Source: Nanobdellota archaeon | GTDB taxonomy: Archaea > Nanobdellota > Nanobdellia > Woesearchaeales > UBA11576 | Assembly (NCBI GenBank): GCA_042576705.1 | Contig: JBHPEY010000005.1 | Location: forward strand, 1,786 to 65,785 | DNA length: 64,000 nucleotides | Direction of reading: 5' to 3' | Part shown: in pieces, positions 23,959 through 27,691 of the stretch | Numbering within the stretch: position 1 is the first letter of the stretch | How the letters are laid out: each line of letters starts with the position of its first letter | Notes under the pieces: generated by a model | Databases searched by the model: none | What the model was told of the DNA's origin: nothing | The model's input: the letters and a program-made list of their open reading frames with translations, nothing else | Made by a program: the position numbers and the translations under genes

Positions 23959-24972
23959 ATGAATATCGAGATATGGACCTTGCTTCCTGTAGCGATTATT
24001 TTAGGGATTGTAAGCAGTCATAGTGACTTCAAAGAAGGGAAAATACAAAATAAGTATCTCATCATGGCGGTCATCGCGAGCGTCATCCTTCATGGTTTCC
24101 TGTGGGCATTCCATATCATCGAAAATCATCAACTACTGATAAAAATCTCACACATGATCATCAGCAGCGTTATCGGAATCGCACTCTATTCCCTGAATCT
24201 CTGGAGTGGGGGTGATGCTAAGCTATACATCGCTTTCGTGTCTCTCCTGCCAGAATACTCTTTCACCTTATTCGGTATGGCCCCAATAACCATACTGGCA
24301 GGCACGTTTTTGTTGCTTTTGATATACCTTGTCCTCAAATCAATATTTCAAACAACAAAAGACCAGAAAATAACCCTTTTGAAAAAAATACTCAACCCCA
24401 AGAACCTCGGCCATTCCTTGTTAGTAATATTCGCCATCTCCTGGATAATAACCAGCATATTCACTCACTTTGGGATAGAGAAAAATATCGCCTACAGCAT
24501 AATACTCATCTTTTTTATATACCGGGCGCTCAATTATCTTTTCAAAGAAGAATCAATATACCTTATTGCGCTCATAGCGATACTGCGTGTTTTCTTCAAT
24601 TCTGATCATATACTGCGGACAGAATTCATCATAAGCTTCCTTGTCATGACTGCTGCATATATCCTTGTATTTAAAAGCCTCTTGGAGATTCCAGATCTCT
24701 TCTGCAAAAAAGTAAAGATATATAAGCTAACAAAAGATATGTGGTCGAGGGAAGGGGTGACGATGAAAGGGTATCTTACAGAGGACAGGTCCCAGAAGAA
24801 CCTTGTGCCCCCAAACAAAAGGCTTGATGAAGCAGACTTATACAGGCTGCGAAACAATGCTGCAAAAGGAAAACTACACATCAACTCACTCCTCGTCTAT
24901 GAAAAGATATCTTTTGCACCTCTCTTATTCGGAGGGACAATCCTCAACTTCATATTTATAATCATAAGGTGA
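23959..24972 (+). CDS. Polytopic membrane protein resembling an A24-family (type IV prepilin/preflagellin) aspartyl peptidase, with a ~200-aa insertion
   Basis: Both catalytic-Asp motifs of the family can be read: SHSDFKEGKIQNKYL (D-x-K-x-x-x-I-x-N type) and LWSGGDAKLYIAF (GxGDxKL type). A terminal ISFAPLLFGGTIL resembles the family's C-terminal PF.P...G motif. About 8 TM helices. Confidence 0.55.
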   Translation: MNIEIWTLLPVAIILGIVSSHSDFKEGKIQNKYLIMAVIASVILHGFLWAFHIIENHQLLIKISHMIISSVIGIALYSLNLWSGGDAKLYIAFVSLLPEYSFTLFGMAPITILAGTFLLLLIYLVLKSIFQTTKDQKITLLKKILNPKNLGHSLLVIFAISWIITSIFTHFGIEKNIAYSIILIFFIYRALNYLFKEESIYLIALIAILRVFFNSDHILRTEFIISFLVMTAAYILVFKSLLEIPDLFCKKVKIYKLTKDMWSREGVTMKGYLTEDRSQKNLVPPNKRLDEADLYRLRNNAAKGKLHINSLLVYEKISFAPLLFGGTILNFIFIIIR

Positions 24973-25397
24973 TATCCATGGAAGACAAAAAAATATTTGA
25001 TATTTCACAAGATGCTGGTGTCCTGTACCTGGATCCTGAAGTCTACCCTCTTGAGACAATATACAAGGCAGCGTATGTCATGATCGATAAGGCATTTATA
25101 CTCCTTGACAAGGATGGCCAAAAGATAAAGGTCCAAGTGAACAGAAAAAATGGGTCCCAGAACATCAGACAGCTTGTCGAGGAATTCAATGAGGAGCTAC
25201 TCAACTATGTTGTCTATAAGACGCAGAACGACAAGAACAAAGTACTTAGGGAGCTCATACTCCAGAAAGTGATGATAACAAACGACCCCAATTACTATAA
25301 TACACTCAACACCGCTACTGATAACATCCAAAAGCCTAAAGAGGATATCGAAGACCCTGAAGAGATATTCAAACCCTGGGAGGAAAAGAATGCATAA
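24969..25397 (+). CDS. HxsD-like accessory protein (142 aa)
   Basis: GTG 24969 overlaps the upstream stop; ATG at 24978. EVYPLETIYKAAYVMIDKAFILLD and EEFNEELLNYVVYKTQ...VLRELIL resemble the His-Xaa-Ser-system HxsD family, whose model I recall being named after an LLNDYxLRE motif. From memory; not searched. Confidence 0.4.
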   Translation: MISMEDKKIFDISQDAGVLYLDPEVYPLETIYKAAYVMIDKAFILLDKDGQKIKVQVNRKNGSQNIRQLVEEFNEELLNYVVYKTQNDKNKVLRELILQKVMITNDPNYYNTLNTATDNIQKPKEDIEDPEEIFKPWEEKNA

Positions 25398-25590
25398 GTA
25401 CGAGCTGGAACTCAATGCGGAACTCTACACCGAGGAGGCTGTCAAAGCAGCAGCAGATATTCTTAAAGAGACCTGCCGGACAGACATAATAAAGGGGCAG
25501 GGACAGTTCAGGATAGTGATGAATTCTGAAGAGGATATAGAAGAGCTTGACAAAGAGTTTGCAAACATCTGCCTGATGCAAATGTTCTAA
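25390..25590 (+). CDS. Short paralog of the HxsD-like protein (66 aa)
   Basis: Aligns by eye with the previous gene (LNAELYTEEAVKAAADIL vs LDPEVYPLETIYKAAYVM; LDKEFANICL vs LVEEFNEELL). 8-nt overlap with the upstream gene and only 2 nt before the next gene. Confidence 0.4.
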   Translation: MHKYELELNAELYTEEAVKAAADILKETCRTDIIKGQGQFRIVMNSEEDIEELDKEFANICLMQMF

Positions 25591-25592
25591 AA

Positions 25593-27044
25593 ATGGCCAT
25601 ATCTTATTTCAATGAAACATTTGTCCTGGGAAAAGACCATGTCATGAGTAACCTGAGGACCAGACGGATACGGGACAAGATTCTTGTCACAACAGACCAG
25701 GGCAGCTGGATTGCTCTTGATGAAAAAGAACACAAAAAACTGATTGGCGGTTCCATAGACGATTCTTTGTTCCGCGAACTCGAGTCGAAAGGCATCATAA
25801 TCACTTCAAGAAACCTGGGCAAGATAATTTCAAACTATTATGACCGGACATCATTCCTGCGAAACGGCACCCCCCTTCACATCCTAATACCCACACTCAG
25901 GTGCAACCTGAAATGCGTTTATTGCCATTCTGCTGCAAAAGATGCTGACAAGAAAGAATATGACATGGACCACATAACTGTGGACAAGACGCTGGATTAT
26001 ATTTTCCAGACACCCAATAAAAAAATCACGCTTGAATTCCAGGGCGGTGAGCCATTGCTTGCGTTCGAAACAGTCAAATACATCGTAGAGAAGGCAAATG
26101 AACTCAATAAAAAATACAAGAAACACATAAATTTCGCTCTTGTCACAAACCTTACGTTGATGACTGAAGAGATACTTGAATTCATAATCCAAGAGAACAT
26201 CGGCGTGACCACTTCGATAGACGGGCACATGCACATACATAACCATAACCGGAAGTACGAAACAGGTGGTGACACCTATGATGATGTCAAGAAATGGTTC
26301 CAACACCTAAAAGAAAAAGGTGTTCACGTGGGTGCCTTGATGGTTACTACCAAAGAAAGCCTGAAATACCACAAAGAGATCATCGATGAATATGTCAAGC
26401 TCGGAGTTACCAGGATACAGATAAAGTACATCAACAAGATAGGTTTTGCGGAAAGATGCTGGGAGCAAATAGGGTATGATGTCGATGAGTTCATAGAATT
26501 CTGGCAGAAAAGCGTCGACTATCTTATTGAACTCAACAAGAACGGGGTGCGGTTGAAATCGCGCTACGTCGCATTGATACTCAAAAAGATACTGACCACA
26601 ACAGATCCTTCCTTCCTCGACCTGAGAAGTCCCTGTGGAGCAGTATGCGGACAGCAGGCATACAACTTCAACGGAGACATCTACTGCTGTGATGAAGGCA
26701 GATCCAACGAGATGTTCAAGATGGGAAGTGTCTGTAAAGACTGCTACAAGGATGTCGTGTGCTCAGATAAATCTCAAGCGATAATAAAAGCATCAATAAA
26801 CGACACGCATATCTGCGATGATTGCGCATACAAGCCCTGGTGCGGACTCTGCCCGGTCATAGCATATGCAGAGCAAGGCAACATCATCCCGAAGATACCT
26901 AAATTCTCCAAATGCAAGATATCTAAAGCCCAGTTCGATTATGTCCTAGAGAAATTGATATTCTACCCTGATGTCAGGAAGATATTCTTCGATTGGCTCA
27001 CAGACTGGCAACAACTCACAGACTGCCATACCCATGTCATATGA
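25593..27044 (+). CDS. Radical SAM enzyme with C-terminal SPASM domain (HxsB/anSME-like peptide/protein maturase)
   Basis: CNLKCVYCH (Cx3Cx2C) at about aa 104, then GGEPLL. C-terminal auxiliary-cluster cysteines: CGAVCGQQ...GDIYCCDEG...CDDCAYKPWCGLCPV. A ~100-aa N-terminal extension (ILVTTDQGSWIALDEKEHKKLIGG...LESKGIIITS) is typical of HxsB/HxsC-type maturases. Confidence 0.8.
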   Translation: MAISYFNETFVLGKDHVMSNLRTRRIRDKILVTTDQGSWIALDEKEHKKLIGGSIDDSLFRELESKGIIITSRNLGKIISNYYDRTSFLRNGTPLHILIPTLRCNLKCVYCHSAAKDADKKEYDMDHITVDKTLDYIFQTPNKKITLEFQGGEPLLAFETVKYIVEKANELNKKYKKHINFALVTNLTLMTEEILEFIIQENIGVTTSIDGHMHIHNHNRKYETGGDTYDDVKKWFQHLKEKGVHVGALMVTTKESLKYHKEIIDEYVKLGVTRIQIKYINKIGFAERCWEQIGYDVDEFIEFWQKSVDYLIELNKNGVRLKSRYVALILKKILTTTDPSFLDLRSPCGAVCGQQAYNFNGDIYCCDEGRSNEMFKMGSVCKDCYKDVVCSDKSQAIIKASINDTHICDDCAYKPWCGLCPVIAYAEQGNIIPKIPKFSKCKISKAQFDYVLEKLIFYPDVRKIFFDWLTDWQQLTDCHTHVI

Positions 27045-27064
27045 CAAGAAAAAGTGTTGCTTGA

Positions 27065-27691
27065 TCAACTATTGAGGTGGTTTGTGTGATTACAGTCACC
27101 ATGGTGATGATCATCCATATGACACTTATAACCAACAAGTGGAGACCATCCTAAAGCGTGCGCGTGAGTCGCCTGAATGGAACTCTCACCGGATTTCTGC
27201 AGGTTTATCTCATTCATGTGCGTCGGAAGGGTAACATTCAAGTGTCCTTCTCTGTTCAGATGATCGTCACAACCATCTATGTGCTGGGCCTCAGTCTGAC
27301 AATATATATCCTTATAATAACCATCTGTCAAAAGCACGTGCTTGTCAAGCAGATCGAAATCATCCTCATCGAACTGTGTGGGAAATCCGCCGGGAACATT
27401 ACCTACGTCAAAAGTTCCGCGAAAACCATATTCAGAATTACAGTGGTTTGGATGGCAACTCTGGTGGTCTCCCGCATCATTAAGCCAAGATTCACACATA
27501 GTCCCACTAACCCCCATTCTCTTCGCGGCAGAGTTATAATTTTCAGGGCTATTTATCTTACAATGATAAGCAGCTTCTACCACCCCTGAGCTAAGAACCA
27601 CCGCAAACAACACCGAGCTTTTCTTGATAGGTAACCCTCCTGATTCATCTAGAAGAAAATTCCTGATCCTTTTCTTGATTTCTAACTTCAT
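27065..27691 (-). CDS. His/Cys-rich membrane-anchored protein with His-Xaa-Asn triplets (candidate maturase substrate)
   Basis: 208 aa. Basic N-terminus, ...LLDESGG, then a hydrophobic helix (SSVLFAVVLSSGVVEAA). The ectodomain has 17 His and 8 Cys. Seven His are in H-x-N (HPN, HCN, HLN, HLN, HMN, HTN, HLN). The tail is CHMDDHHHGDCNHTNHLNS; I checked its codons against the DNA. Own TATA-like box (GTTTATAAAATA) ~45 nt upstream. Confidence 0.6.
   Translation of the reverse strand: MKLEIKKRIRNFLLDESGGLPIKKSSVLFAVVLSSGVVEAAYHCKINSPENYNSAAKRMGVSGTMCESWLNDAGDHQSCHPNHCNSEYGFRGTFDVGNVPGGFPTQFDEDDFDLLDKHVLLTDGYYKDIYCQTEAQHIDGCDDHLNREGHLNVTLPTHMNEINLQKSGESSIQATHAHALGWSPLVGYKCHMDDHHHGDCNHTNHLNS

What the first reader, a model, noticed from the sequence alone, without database searches (positions are those of the whole stretch)
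23959..27691. Variant 'Hxs-like' maturation cassette: His-Xaa-Asn protein + HxsB-like rSAM/SPASM + two HxsD-like proteins + A24-type peptidase
Seen in sequence: four tightly packed plus-strand genes with overlaps or gaps of 8 nt or less. They encode an A24-like membrane peptidase (SDFKEGKIQN and SGGDAKL motifs), two paralogous small proteins with Y..E.[IV].KAA and EF.N..L motifs, and a radical SAM enzyme (CNLKCVYC) with a full SPASM cysteine set. A 208-aa membrane-anchored protein converges on them. Its ectodomain has 17 His and 8 Cys, and 7 of the 17 His are in His-Xaa-Asn triplets (HPN, HCN, HLN x3, HMN, HTN), ending ...HHHGDCNHTNHLNS. Established knowledge: bacterial His-Xaa-Ser (Hxs) systems combine a His-Xaa-Ser repeat protein (HxsA), paired rSAM maturases (HxsB/C) and HxsD, and their chemistry is unknown. 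Inference: this is an archaeal relative whose substrate uses His-Xaa-Asn instead of His-Xaa-Ser, has only one adjacent maturase, and has recruited an intramembrane aspartyl protease. I do not know of a described system with this combination.
Basis: partly seen in the sequence, partly recalled or inferred. Interest (0 to 1): 0.82.

Follow-up and report, generated by a model that had tools for sequence, protein, structure and literature searches.

The report
Archaeal Hxs cassette with His-x-Asn substrate
A tiny symbiotic archaeon carries a nine-gene version of the bacterial 'Hxs' radical-SAM protein-maturation system, whose target protein uses His-x-Asn instead of His-x-Ser motifs and which includes its own membrane leader peptidase; it is a new variant of a known system rather than a new kind.

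Summary
The sequence observations hold: five genes, 17 His, 8 Cys and 7 H-x-N (shuffle p about 2e-5).

**Family matches.** The rSAM enzyme passes the NCBIfam HxsB cut-off. The two small proteins just pass the HxsD and HxsD-like cut-offs.

**The 208-aa protein.** It matches no library model. It does carry the N-terminal leader of the leader-bearing His-rich proteins beside HxsB, some of which weakly match NCBIfam HxsA3/HxsA4. It belongs to an unannotated long, acidic, Cys-bearing subfamily (84 of 145 clusters). In that subfamily Asn is enriched 4.5-fold and Ser 2.5-fold two residues after His, and one H-x-N is nearly invariant.

**The A24-like gene.** It keeps both catalytic Asp. It lies within 9 kb of HxsB in 15 of 17 fully flanked archaeal loci, against 6 of 33 bacterial loci.

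- There is more than one maturase. An HxsC-like enzyme lies at 31454-32353, adjacent to HxsB in relatives, and a third rSAM lies between them.
- The cassette is nine genes, 23959-32353. It includes a Cys-rich membrane protein that always accompanies the long substrates.
- Hxs is no longer uncharacterised: a 2026 paper shows it is an antiphage system.

The end function here is unknown.

Verdict: new variant of a known kind, interest about 0.57.

The parts
23959..24972 (+). A24-type (EppA/FlaK-like) intramembrane aspartyl peptidase, 337 aa. Proposed leader peptidase of the cassette.
   Evidence: PF01478 gives 24.9 bits (E 2.9e-5), just under the gathering score of 26.5. Of 32 family members from related loci, 26 match PF01478 and 18 match PF06819 Arc_PepC. 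Four match NCBIfam EppA and two match FlaK. D23, N31, D86 and K88 are invariant, which covers the D..I.N and G-D-x-K-L catalytic motifs. The gene sits directly upstream of HxsD in about 19 archaeal loci and overlaps HxsD by 4 nt here.
24969..25397 (+). HxsD, 142 aa.
   Evidence: TIGR03976 gives 52.6 bits against a cut-off of 50, E 4.3e-14. Relatives carry PF27806 HxsD.
25390..25590 (+). HxsD-like small paralogue, 66 aa.
   Evidence: NF038315 HxsD_rel gives 41.1 bits against a cut-off of 41, E 1.5e-10. It cross-hits TIGR03976. It is present between HxsD and HxsB in 30 of 38 archaeal and 27 of 44 bacterial loci.
25593..27044 (+). HxsB radical SAM/SPASM maturase, 483 aa.
   Evidence: TIGR03978 gives 452.5 bits against a cut-off of 370, E 1.6e-135, aligned end to end. 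C104, C108 and C111, plus six SPASM cysteines, are invariant and C441 nearly invariant in 30 relatives. NCBI names it HxsB.
27065..27691 (-). HxsA-type precursor/effector, His-x-Asn variant, 208 aa. It has a basic leader (1-26), a hydrophobic segment (27-40), a variable Cys-bearing region, a conserved hairpin core from H144 to H197, and a C-terminal NHTNHLNS.
   Evidence: Counts and shuffle test are. A leader HMM built only from canonical HxS-repeat proteins finds it as the sole hit among 401 window ORFs, E 8e-4. Alignments with L001, L004, L006 and L007 show invariant K6 K7 F12 E16 G18 I22 S26 H144 H158 N160 G168 I172 H176 H178. In 57 family members, H158, N160 and H176 are at least 90% conserved. 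The AlphaFold model gives pLDDT block means of about 70-94 (81-94 over residues 151-190) for a hairpin spanning 142-166 and 172-196. No NCBIfam or Pfam model matches it.
27756..28817 (-). Cys-rich single-pass membrane protein, 353 aa. Constant partner of the long HxsA-type proteins.
   Evidence: Homologues lie next to the long HxsA-type gene in L001, L006, L007, L085, L086, L087 and L088. Eight invariant Cys, a conserved N-terminal cytoplasmic domain and one TM helix are present. No library family matches.
28961..30322 (-). Third radical SAM protein, 453 aa (CNSNCPHC), with an N-terminal extension of about 140 aa.
   Evidence: PF04055 gives 39.7 bits. NCBIfam gives only weak generic rSAM hits. 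It is 55% identical over 312 aa to L006 4703-5647, which holds the same place in the same block.
30499..31425 (-). DUF483 protein, 308 aa, first gene of the minus-strand block.
   Evidence: PF04467 gives 27.0 bits against a cut-off of 25. It is 36% identical to L006 3243-4088 in the same block order. Weaker homologues occur near Hxs genes in L067, L078, L065 and L050, and L070 by jackhmmer.
31454..32353 (+). HxsC-like radical SAM enzyme (CNNNCVFC). The ORF runs from TTG at 31454, and the likely start is ATG at 31496 (285 aa).
   Evidence: The best NCBIfam hits are HxsC4 (NF038332, 134.5 bits) and HxsC (TIGR03977, 109.9 bits), both below their cut-offs. It is 43% identical (E 1e-88) to L004 9470-10354, which directly follows HxsB. 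An HxsC-like gene follows HxsB directly in L001, L002, L004 and L005.
20352..23813 (-). Giant Cys/Asp-rich secreted protein, 1153 aa, divergent from the A24-like gene. Possibly associated; not established.
   Evidence: Weak homologues (E 6e-16 to 2e-7) hold the same divergent position upstream of the A24-like gene in L007, L078 and L004. No Pfam family matches.

Best explanation
The region is a DPANN-archaeal version of the His-Xaa-Ser (Hxs) radical-SAM protein-maturation system. It spans nine genes (23959-32353) in two facing blocks.

**Proposed path (inferred, except where marked).**
1. The 208-aa protein is the precursor. Its basic N-terminal leader (consensus IKKxIxxFLxxExGxIxKxS) is the handle recognised by the cytoplasmic maturation machinery. 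That machinery is HxsB, the HxsC-like enzyme and probably the third rSAM enzyme, with HxsD and HxsD-like as adaptors.
2. These enzymes modify His-x-Asn/Ser positions. Those positions lie on one face of a long beta-hairpin (H144/N146, H150/N152, H158/N160, then T-H176-A-H178).
3. The co-encoded A24 (EppA/FlaK-like) intramembrane aspartyl peptidase removes the leader at the membrane.
4. The mature acidic His/Cys/Asn-rich domain ends up outside the cell. It is held by, or released from, its hydrophobic segment, and it sits with the Cys-rich membrane partner.

**What is shown.** Family assignments, leader homology, the H-x-[N/S] family motif, conserved synteny and the catalytic residues.

**What is inferred.** The order of steps, A24 acting as the leader peptidase, and surface display.

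**End function.** This is not established. I rate a metal-binding or envelope role somewhat more likely than a direct copy of the E. coli 'DNA-entry gatekeeper', because the mature domain is strongly acidic.
For: - **Core enzymes.** HxsB, HxsD and HxsD-like all score above their curated cut-offs.
- **Second maturase.** The HxsC-like enzyme is orthologous to the gene that follows HxsB in relatives.
- **Leader-bearing partners.** A leader-bearing His-rich ORF lies beside HxsB in 49 of 82 loci. Canonical members match NCBIfam HxsA3/HxsA4, and one passes the HxsA4 cut-off.
- **The window protein as a family member.** It is the only window ORF found by a leader model built without it. It aligns with relatives along its full length.
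- **The H-x-[N/S] motif.** Across 83 long family members other than the window protein, H-x-N occurs 267 times against 62 expected, and H-x-S 203 times against 86 expected.
- **A24-like gene.** D23 and D86 are invariant. Pfam and NCBIfam A24, EppA and FlaK models hit family members. The gene is present in 15 of 17 fully flanked archaeal loci and in 22 of the 23 archaeal loci with a leader-bearing ORF.
- **Conserved block.** The block DUF483, rSAM, Cys-rich protein, substrate keeps its order in L006. The Cys-rich partner sits next to every long substrate examined.
- **Precedent.** In E. coli, HxsA needs HxsB, HxsC and HxsD for a non-canonical N-terminal cleavage and for a site-specific modification in an HxS motif (PMC13128918).
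Against: - The 208-aa protein matches no curated HxsA model. Its link to the family rests on a leader of about 26 residues (14-20 bits when the model excludes it) plus synteny.
- The HxsC-like enzyme is far below the HxsC and HxsC4 cut-offs.
- The A24-like protein is just under the Pfam threshold.
- No canonical class III ([KR]-G | hydrophobic) cleavage site is evident in the leader.
- The same leader occurs in 22 bacterial loci that lack an A24 gene. The leader therefore cannot be specific to A24.
- The mature domain has a net charge of -15 and pI 5.4, and the family median is -14. This argues against the electrostatic DNA-binding model proposed for E. coli HxsA.
- PADLOC gives no defence-system hit beyond generic viperin-type rSAM matches.
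- The loci sit among housekeeping genes (RNase P p30, ThiI, Cdc6, PolD) at conserved positions, unlike typical defence islands.
Confidence: 0.72

Rival explanations
1. The maturation cassette is Hxs-type, and its product does what E. coli HxsA does. It would be a matured envelope protein that blocks entry of viral DNA, making this an archaeal antiviral defence system.
For: Experimental function is known only for a homologous system (PMC13128918). That system shares HxsB, HxsD, a second rSAM enzyme, an exported His-rich effector and N-terminal processing. L001 has a HEPN/MNT pair beside the cassette.
Against: The mature domain is acidic, with net charge -15 and pI 5.4, whereas the E. coli model relies on basic HxS repeats binding DNA. 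There is no peptidoglycan-binding domain. The chromosomal position is conserved and vertically inherited, next to housekeeping genes. PADLOC gives no hit. The effector families are not homologous outside the short His motifs.
Confidence: 0.25
2. The 208-aa protein is an ordinary His/Cys-rich metal-binding surface protein or metallochaperone. It merely lies next to the rSAM genes and is not their substrate.
For: It has 17 His, 8 Cys and 28 Asp+Glu. H-x-H and H-x-N on a beta strand are classic metal-ligand geometries. Neighbouring giant proteins carry MopE-type Cys-rich 'metal-binding' motifs. No curated HxsA model matches.
Against: It carries the same leader as canonical HxS-repeat proteins that sit directly after HxsB in dozens of loci. 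Long-subfamily members are flanked by HxsB/HxsC-type rSAM genes in every contig long enough to tell. Metal binding and being an rSAM substrate are not mutually exclusive.
Confidence: 0.12
3. The A24-like gene is the cell's general prepilin/prearchaellin peptidase. It is only syntenic with the Hxs genes, and another protease (for example signal peptidase I at VEA|A) removes the leader.
For: The leader has no canonical class III site. The same leader is used in 22 bacterial loci without A24. Many family members end their hydrophobic segment in AxA-like sites. The window protein is below the Pfam gathering score.
Against: The gene is adjacent and co-oriented, usually directly upstream of HxsD, across loci labelled Woesearchaeota and Nanoarchaeota. 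It lies nearby in other orientations in Iainarchaeota and Aenigmatarchaeota loci. It overlaps HxsD by 4 nt here. The family is divergent, and only a few of the 32 members (4 EppA, 2 FlaK) match the NCBIfam peptidase models. L011 carries two copies in one locus.
Confidence: 0.25

Closest known systems
Bacterial HXS antiphage system (HxsA/B/C/D of E. coli, Klebsiella and other Pseudomonadota; TIGR03976-TIGR03979; PMC13128918, Nat Commun 2026)
   Same: Both have an HxsB rSAM/SPASM enzyme (above the equivalog cut-off), HxsD, a second smaller rSAM enzyme, an exported His-rich target protein with His-x-small-polar motifs, and an N-terminal processing step.
   Different: Differences in the archaeal system:
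- The host is archaeal (DPANN).
- The target is not homologous to HxsA. It has no TIGR03979 hit and no peptidoglycan-binding domain.
- The target uses H-x-N plus Cys, is acidic, and carries a long conserved leader.
- The HxsC-like enzyme fails the HxsC cut-off.
- Extra genes are present: an HxsD-like paralogue, an A24 peptidase, a Cys-rich membrane protein, DUF483 and a third rSAM.
- The order is A24, D, D-like, B, then a convergent block, then C, rather than D-B-C-A.
- Function is untested.
NCBIfam 'HxsA3/HxsA4' type systems (NF038309, NF038313, with HxsC4 NF038332 and HxsD-like NF038315)
   Same: The leader matches: canonical relatives hit positions 2 to about 45 of the HxsA3/HxsA4 models. 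The HxsD-like protein scores above its cut-off. HxsC4 is the best hit for the HxsC-like enzyme.
   Different: The window protein itself scores nothing against HxsA3 or HxsA4. It has no tandem SH[SG] repeat array. It belongs to a longer (140-300 aa), Cys-bearing, acidic subfamily with a conserved H-x-N...T-H-x-H hairpin core. The links to A24 and to the Cys-rich partner are not captured by any model in the library.
Archaeal class III signal peptidases (peptidase family A24: EppA, FlaK, PibD)
   Same: Both are polytopic membrane proteins with two catalytic Asp in D..I(P/R)N and G-x-G-D-x-K-L contexts. Relatives carry the archaeal C-terminal Arc_PepC domain.
   Different: This is a divergent family (window below the Pfam gathering score, no NCBIfam hit). 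It is embedded in an rSAM maturation operon rather than a pilus or archaellum locus. The presumed substrate lacks the canonical [KR]-G | hydrophobic site.
Leader-dependent rSAM/SPASM peptide maturases of RiPP pathways (PapB, SCIFF maturase, DynA, CcpM)
   Same: Both have the SPASM architecture, a conserved N-terminal leader on the substrate, and a dedicated peptidase gene in the cluster. PapB is the second-best NCBIfam hit at 167 bits.
   Different: The product here is a 170-aa folded, exported protein domain rather than a short peptide, and the modified motif and chemistry are unknown.

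Membership tests
Hxs (His-Xaa-Ser) system | HxsB rSAM/SPASM maturase (TIGR03978, cut-off 370 bits) | tested here: met
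   452.5 bits, E 1.6e-135, aligned over 21-469 of 483 aa. The CX3CX2C motif and 7 SPASM Cys are conserved.
Hxs (His-Xaa-Ser) system | HxsD small protein (TIGR03976, cut-off 50 bits) | tested here: met
   52.6 bits for the 142-aa protein, a marginal pass. The 66-aa paralogue scores 41.1 against 41 for HxsD_rel NF038315.
Hxs (His-Xaa-Ser) system | HxsC paired rSAM maturase (TIGR03977 cut-off 267.9; HxsC4 NF038332 cut-off 500) | tested here: not met
   The protein at 31454-32353 scores 109.9 bits against HxsC and 134.5 bits against HxsC4, both below cut-off. It is nevertheless the positional orthologue of the gene that follows HxsB in relatives (43% identity).
Hxs (His-Xaa-Ser) system | HxsA target protein matching TIGR03979, or HxsA2/A3/A4 (NF038296, NF038309, NF038313) | tested here: not met
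   The 208-aa protein has no hit at E <= 1. Relatives L001 and L004 reach 18 and 22 bits on the HxsA3 leader against a cut-off of 65. A leader HMM built here without the window protein scores 14-20 bits, E 8e-4 to 1e-5.
Hxs (His-Xaa-Ser) system | Tandem His-Xaa-Ser repeats in the target | tested here: not met
   The protein has 1 H-x-S and 7 dispersed H-x-N. H144-L-N aligns with H-x-S in three relatives. Family-wide, both N (4.5-fold) and S (2.5-fold) are enriched at His+2.
Hxs (His-Xaa-Ser) system | Contiguous D-B-C-A gene arrangement | tested here: inconclusive
   D, D-like and B are contiguous. The target gene is convergent, 20 nt after B. The HxsC-like gene is displaced 4.4 kb by a conserved four-gene block. 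Relatives L001, L002 and L004 have B and C adjacent.
Hxs (His-Xaa-Ser) system | Antiphage activity and the +8 Da modification with N-terminal cleavage of the target | not testable with these tools
   These are known only for E. coli HXS (PMC13128918).
Peptidase family A24 (type IV prepilin / preflagellin peptidases) | Match to PF01478 at the gathering score (26.5 bits) | tested here: not met
   The window protein scores 24.9 bits, E 2.9e-5. Of 32 homologues from related loci, 26 match at E <= 0.01 (best 1.4e-11), and 18 match Arc_PepC.
Peptidase family A24 (type IV prepilin / preflagellin peptidases) | Two catalytic aspartates, the second in a G-x-G-D-x-K-L-type motif | tested here: met
   D23 (SDFKEGKIQN) and D86 (SGGDAKL) are invariant in 32 homologues, together with N31 and K88.
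Peptidase family A24 (type IV prepilin / preflagellin peptidases) | A24 fold (FlaK-like six-TM core) | tested here: inconclusive
   The single-sequence AlphaFold model is poor (pLDDT 48.7). Sequence and profile searches of the PDB found no A24 structure.
Peptidase family A24 (type IV prepilin / preflagellin peptidases) | Substrate with a class III signal peptide ([KR]-[GA] | hydrophobic) | tested here: inconclusive
   The leader has conserved glycines: G18 in E-x-G is nearly invariant, and most relatives have a second in K-x-G just before the hydrophobic segment. Neither fits the canonical -2 K/R rule, and the window protein lacks the second Gly.

The most novel reading that the evidence does not exclude
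The A24-like enzyme is the dedicated protease for the enigmatic, non-canonical N-terminal cleavage of HxsA-type proteins. In E. coli that step has no identified protease. On this reading, the matured His-x-Asn hairpin protein and its Cys-rich membrane partner form a surface structure of DPANN archaea that guards against virus genome entry. That would be the first rSAM-matured protein effector of antiviral defence in archaea, and it would use an Asn-based variant of the modified motif.
Probability: 0.15. Interest if true: 0.8.

Novelty: new variant of a known kind. Interest (0 to 1): 0.57.

Why it matters
The Hxs system has only just been shown (2026) to be a bacterial antiphage system. Its effector needs rSAM-dependent modification and an unexplained N-terminal cleavage, and its distribution was reported as 99.7% Pseudomonadota.

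This locus and its relatives change that picture in four ways.

- **Wider distribution.** A much larger and older Hxs-type family exists in the ultra-small DPANN archaea, and in bacteria labelled Patescibacteria/Saccharibacteria (CPR), Elusimicrobia and Omnitrophota.
- **Flexible motif.** The modified motif can be His-x-Asn as well as His-x-Ser. This constrains any chemical mechanism, since an amide replaces a hydroxyl.
- **A candidate protease.** The archaeal cassettes carry their own A24 peptidase, which is a concrete candidate for the leader-cleavage step.
- **A new partner.** A Cys-rich membrane protein always accompanies the long substrates.

The locus therefore offers a compact nine-gene set for reconstitution. 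That work could settle both what HxsB and HxsC do chemically and who cuts the precursor.

It is not a new kind of system. Its biological role in these archaea is still open, whether defence, metal handling or envelope function.

Tried and rejected
- **Direct searches with the 208-aa protein.** The word-indexed search found only the protein itself. Local phmmer and jackhmmer against 7,443 ORFs of related loci also found only itself. The link appeared only through reading neighbours, a leader motif and profile searches.
- **Defence library.** PADLOC gave only generic viperin-type rSAM hits and no defence-system assignment.
- **A24 structure.** PDB sequence and profile searches with the A24-like protein found no A24 structure. 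The hits were Sec61-gamma and glucarate dehydratase at E > 0.04, which are chance matches. The single-sequence AlphaFold model had pLDDT 48.7 and was unusable, so no fold search was run on it.
- **Fold search on the 208-aa model.** The best hit had E 0.69. The TraT, SpoIIIAG and FliF ring-hairpin proteins at the top are not significant and are not used as evidence.
- **Literature.** No paper combines SPASM, prepilin peptidase and RiPP.
- **Rejected: another substrate in the window.** A canonical HxS-repeat ORF elsewhere in the window could be the real substrate. No other ORF has the leader or at least 4 H-x-[SN], apart from giant proteins and antisense frames.
- **Rejected: mobile defence island.** Synteny with RNase P p30, ThiI, Cdc6 and PolD is conserved across genomes.
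- **Rejected: leader specific to A24.** The leader consensus is identical in bacterial loci that lack the peptidase.

Full report

Yes. The ORF list gives four plus-strand genes:
- 23959-24972, 337 aa
- 24969-25397, 142 aa, 4-nt overlap with the previous gene
- 25390-25590, 66 aa, 8-nt overlap
- 25593-27044, 483 aa, 2-nt gap

A 208-aa gene on the minus strand (27065-27691) ends 20 nt after the fourth gene. The quoted motifs (SDFKEGKIQN, SGGDAKL, CNLKCVYC) are present.

The 208-aa protein has 17 His, 8 Cys, seven H-x-N triplets and one H-x-S. In 100,000 shuffles the expected H-x-N count is 1.2-1.4 and the observed 7 is reached with p = 2e-5 to 3e-5. The window comes from a Nanoarchaeota (DPANN) metagenome-assembled contig.

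**2. What the five genes are.**

NCBIfam assigns three of them above curated cut-offs:
- HxsB (TIGR03978): 452.5 bits against 370.
- HxsD (TIGR03976): 52.6 against 50, for the 142-aa protein.
- HxsD-like (NF038315): 41.1 against 41, for the 66-aa protein.

The rSAM CX3CX2C cysteines and six SPASM cysteines are invariant, and C441 nearly invariant, in 30 relatives.

The 337-aa protein falls just below the Pfam A24 threshold (24.9 against 26.5 bits). I collected 32 homologues from related loci. Of these, 26 match PF01478, 18 match the archaeal A24 C-terminal domain PF06819, and a few match NCBIfam EppA or FlaK. The two catalytic aspartates, D23 and D86, are invariant.

The 208-aa protein matches nothing in Pfam, NCBIfam or PADLOC. 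It is a singleton in the word-indexed protein search.

**3. The cassette is larger than the finding.**

An HxsC-like rSAM lies at 31454-32353 (+). Its best hits are HxsC4 at 134.5 bits and HxsC at 109.9 bits, both below cut-off. It is 43% identical (E 1e-88) to the gene that directly follows HxsB in locus L004. HxsB and an HxsC-like gene are also adjacent in L001, L002 and L005.

In the window, four minus-strand genes separate the two:
- DUF483, 30499-31425
- a third rSAM, 28961-30322
- a Cys-rich single-pass membrane protein, 27756-28817
- the 208-aa gene

The same four genes occur in the same transcriptional order immediately upstream of HxsD in a Nanoarchaeia genome, L006. Identities there are 55% for the rSAM, 36% for DUF483 and 24% for the Cys-rich protein. 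The system is therefore nine genes, 23959-32353.

**4. The 208-aa protein is an HxsA-type substrate.**

Reading the neighbours of HxsB homologues showed small His-rich ORFs with a shared N-terminal leader (I/L-P-x-I-K-K-K-I-x-x-F-L-x-x-E-E-G-K-I-S-K-x-S-L-L-K-x-G, then a hydrophobic stretch). In most, the C-terminus is a tandem SH[SG] array. Among the 80 loci fetched from GTDB genomes plus those fetched earlier, a leader HMM finds about 50 such ORFs. Nearly all sit directly after HxsB or HxsC.

Canonical members match the N-terminal part of NCBIfam HxsA3 and HxsA4, so this type of Hxs system is already modelled.

A leader HMM built only from six canonical HxS-repeat proteins picks 27065-27691 as the single hit among 401 window ORFs (E 8e-4; E 1e-5 with ten seeds). 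This test is not circular.

Full-length alignment with L001, L004, L006 and L007 gives invariant K6 K7 F12 E16 G18 I22 S26 in the leader. In the body, H144, H158, N160, G168, I172, H176 and H178 are invariant. The window's H144-L-N aligns with H-x-S in three relatives.

**5. His-x-Asn is a family feature, not a quirk.**

An exhaustive profile search of 1.84 billion cluster representatives found 145 proteins at E <= 1e-3. Of these, 84 are 'long' (140 aa or more) and contain Cys.

Over the 83 long members other than the window protein:
- 267 of 844 His have Asn at +2 (4.5-fold over composition; 62 expected by shuffling).
- 203 of 844 have Ser at +2 (2.5-fold; 86 expected).
- 46 of the 83 proteins are individually significant for H-x-N.

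In a 57-sequence alignment, H158, N160 and H176 are at least 90% conserved. The core reads H-x-N-x-L-x-L-(6)-I-x-A-x-H-x-H.

AlphaFold with this alignment predicts a long beta-hairpin spanning 142-166 and 172-196 (pLDDT 81-94 over residues 151-190). The rest of the protein is of low confidence. All three H-x-N pairs of the first strand (144/146, 150/152, 158/160) have the same parity. They would therefore line one face of the strand; this is my inference. No solved structure resembles the model (best E 0.69).

**6. Accessory genes.**

*A24-like gene.* It lies within 9 kb of HxsB in 27 of 38 archaeal-labelled loci, or 15 of 17 with at least 3 kb of flank on both sides. The bacterial figures are 8 of 44 and 6 of 33. 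Of the 23 archaeal loci with a leader-bearing ORF, 22 have the A24-like gene. In about 19 loci it sits directly upstream of HxsD on the same strand.

*The leader is not specific to A24.* Its consensus is the same in bacterial loci that lack the peptidase. The leader is therefore more probably the handle for HxsB, HxsC and HxsD, and the peptidase is the archaeal way of removing it.

*Cys-rich membrane protein.* It has eight invariant Cys and a conserved cytoplasmic N-domain. It neighbours the long substrate in all eight loci where such a substrate was seen: the window, L001, L006, L007 and L085-L088.

**7. How it most likely works.**

*Shown:*
- the family assignments
- the leader homology
- the H-x-[N/S] motif
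- the synteny
- the catalytic residues

*Known from PMC13128918:*
- In E. coli, HxsB, HxsC and HxsD are each required for a non-canonical N-terminal cleavage of HxsA.
- HxsC binds HxsD.
- A +8 Da change maps to SHRSS.
- The mature protein acts in the periplasm.

*Inferred for this locus:*
1. The leader recruits the cytoplasmic maturases.
2. One or more H-x-N or H-x-H sites on the hairpin are modified.
3. The A24-like enzyme removes the leader at the membrane.
4. The acidic His/Cys/Asn domain is displayed outside with its Cys-rich partner.

*End role.* This is open. The mature domain has net charge -15 (pI 5.4), and the family median is -14. This speaks against the electrostatic DNA-trap model of E. 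coli HxsA and fits metal binding better. The loci also sit at conserved housekeeping positions (RNase P p30, ThiI, Cdc6, PolD), not in defence islands.

**8. Comparison with what is known, and verdict.**

The locus works like an Hxs system and contains bona fide HxsB and HxsD. Two defining features tested here were not met. The target fails every HxsA model and lacks tandem HxS repeats. The second maturase fails the HxsC and HxsC4 cut-offs. It is best described as a new variant.

Three things are new relative to curated models and the 2026 paper:
- the long, acidic, Cys-bearing His-x-Asn substrate subfamily
- the A24 peptidase as a near-constant archaeal component
- the Cys-rich partner, DUF483 and third-rSAM block

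The claims of a single maturase, of unknown Hxs biology and of a five-gene extent do not.

Noticed in passing
Relatives: proteins P0003, P0007, P0009, P0014, P0021, P0033, P0037, P0050; L004 10344-12938; L088 11281-13671: In sister cassettes HxsB is often fused to an APH-type kinase domain (PF01636). L004 has a glycosyltransferase+APH fusion after HxsC, and L088 has an rSAM+glycosyltransferase fusion. These suggest further phosphorylation or glycosylation steps that are absent from the window.
   Followed up: no
window 961-23813 (minus strand): There is an unbroken run of giant Cys/Asp-rich secreted proteins (2399, 577, 1307, 534, 460, 535 and 1153 aa). Three of them (9855-11588, 15683-17287, 18764-20371) carry PF11617 MopE-type Cys-rich 'metal-binding' motifs. 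The 1153-aa protein has weak homologues in the same divergent position next to the A24-like gene in L004, L007 and L078.
   Followed up: partly
window 49639-53274 (+): A 1211-aa protein has SLT lytic transglycosylase and M23 peptidase domains. It is a murein-degrading enzyme in an archaeon that has no murein, which fits attack on a bacterial host or neighbour.
   Followed up: no
window 32716-34685 and 42465-53996; L001, L002, L005, L088: Synteny around the cassette is conserved. RNase P p30 and ThiI/THUMP lie beside it in the window, and RNase P p30 also in L001 and L088 (with ThiI/THUMP in L088). Cdc6, PolD small and large subunits and eIF2-beta lie in the window and next to the cassette in L002 (HxsB-C layout shared with L005). 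The cumulative GC-skew minimum near 34-36 kb, with Cdc6 at 42465, suggests a replication origin close by.
   Followed up: partly
window 36788-37879 (+): A fourth radical SAM gene lies 4.4 kb beyond the cassette (PF04055, 52 bits). Its relation to the system was not examined.
   Followed up: no
L067 11389-18550; also L023, L035, L050, L081: Bacterial-labelled loci (Saccharibacteria/CPR and unclassified) and one archaeal locus (L023) carry runs of about four to seven HxsC-like rSAM paralogues (up to seven in L067) after HxsB. Some Elusimicrobia loci (L060, L062, L064, L069, L076, L079, L082) carry a second HxsD after HxsB.
   Followed up: no
window 28961-30322 (-), residues 1-140: The third rSAM protein has an N-terminal extension of about 140 aa that is absent from its 55%-identical orthologue in L006 (314 aa). 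It may be an added domain or a mis-set start with a 566-nt untranslated gap.
   Followed up: no
window 27065-27691 (-), residues 17-21; P0161 (L085), P0125: The window protein and its closest relative P0161 share a G-G-(L/F)-P insertion after the invariant leader Gly. Both lack the second conserved Gly (K-x-G) that precedes the hydrophobic segment in most family members. This may mark a shifted processing site in this sub-branch.
   Followed up: no
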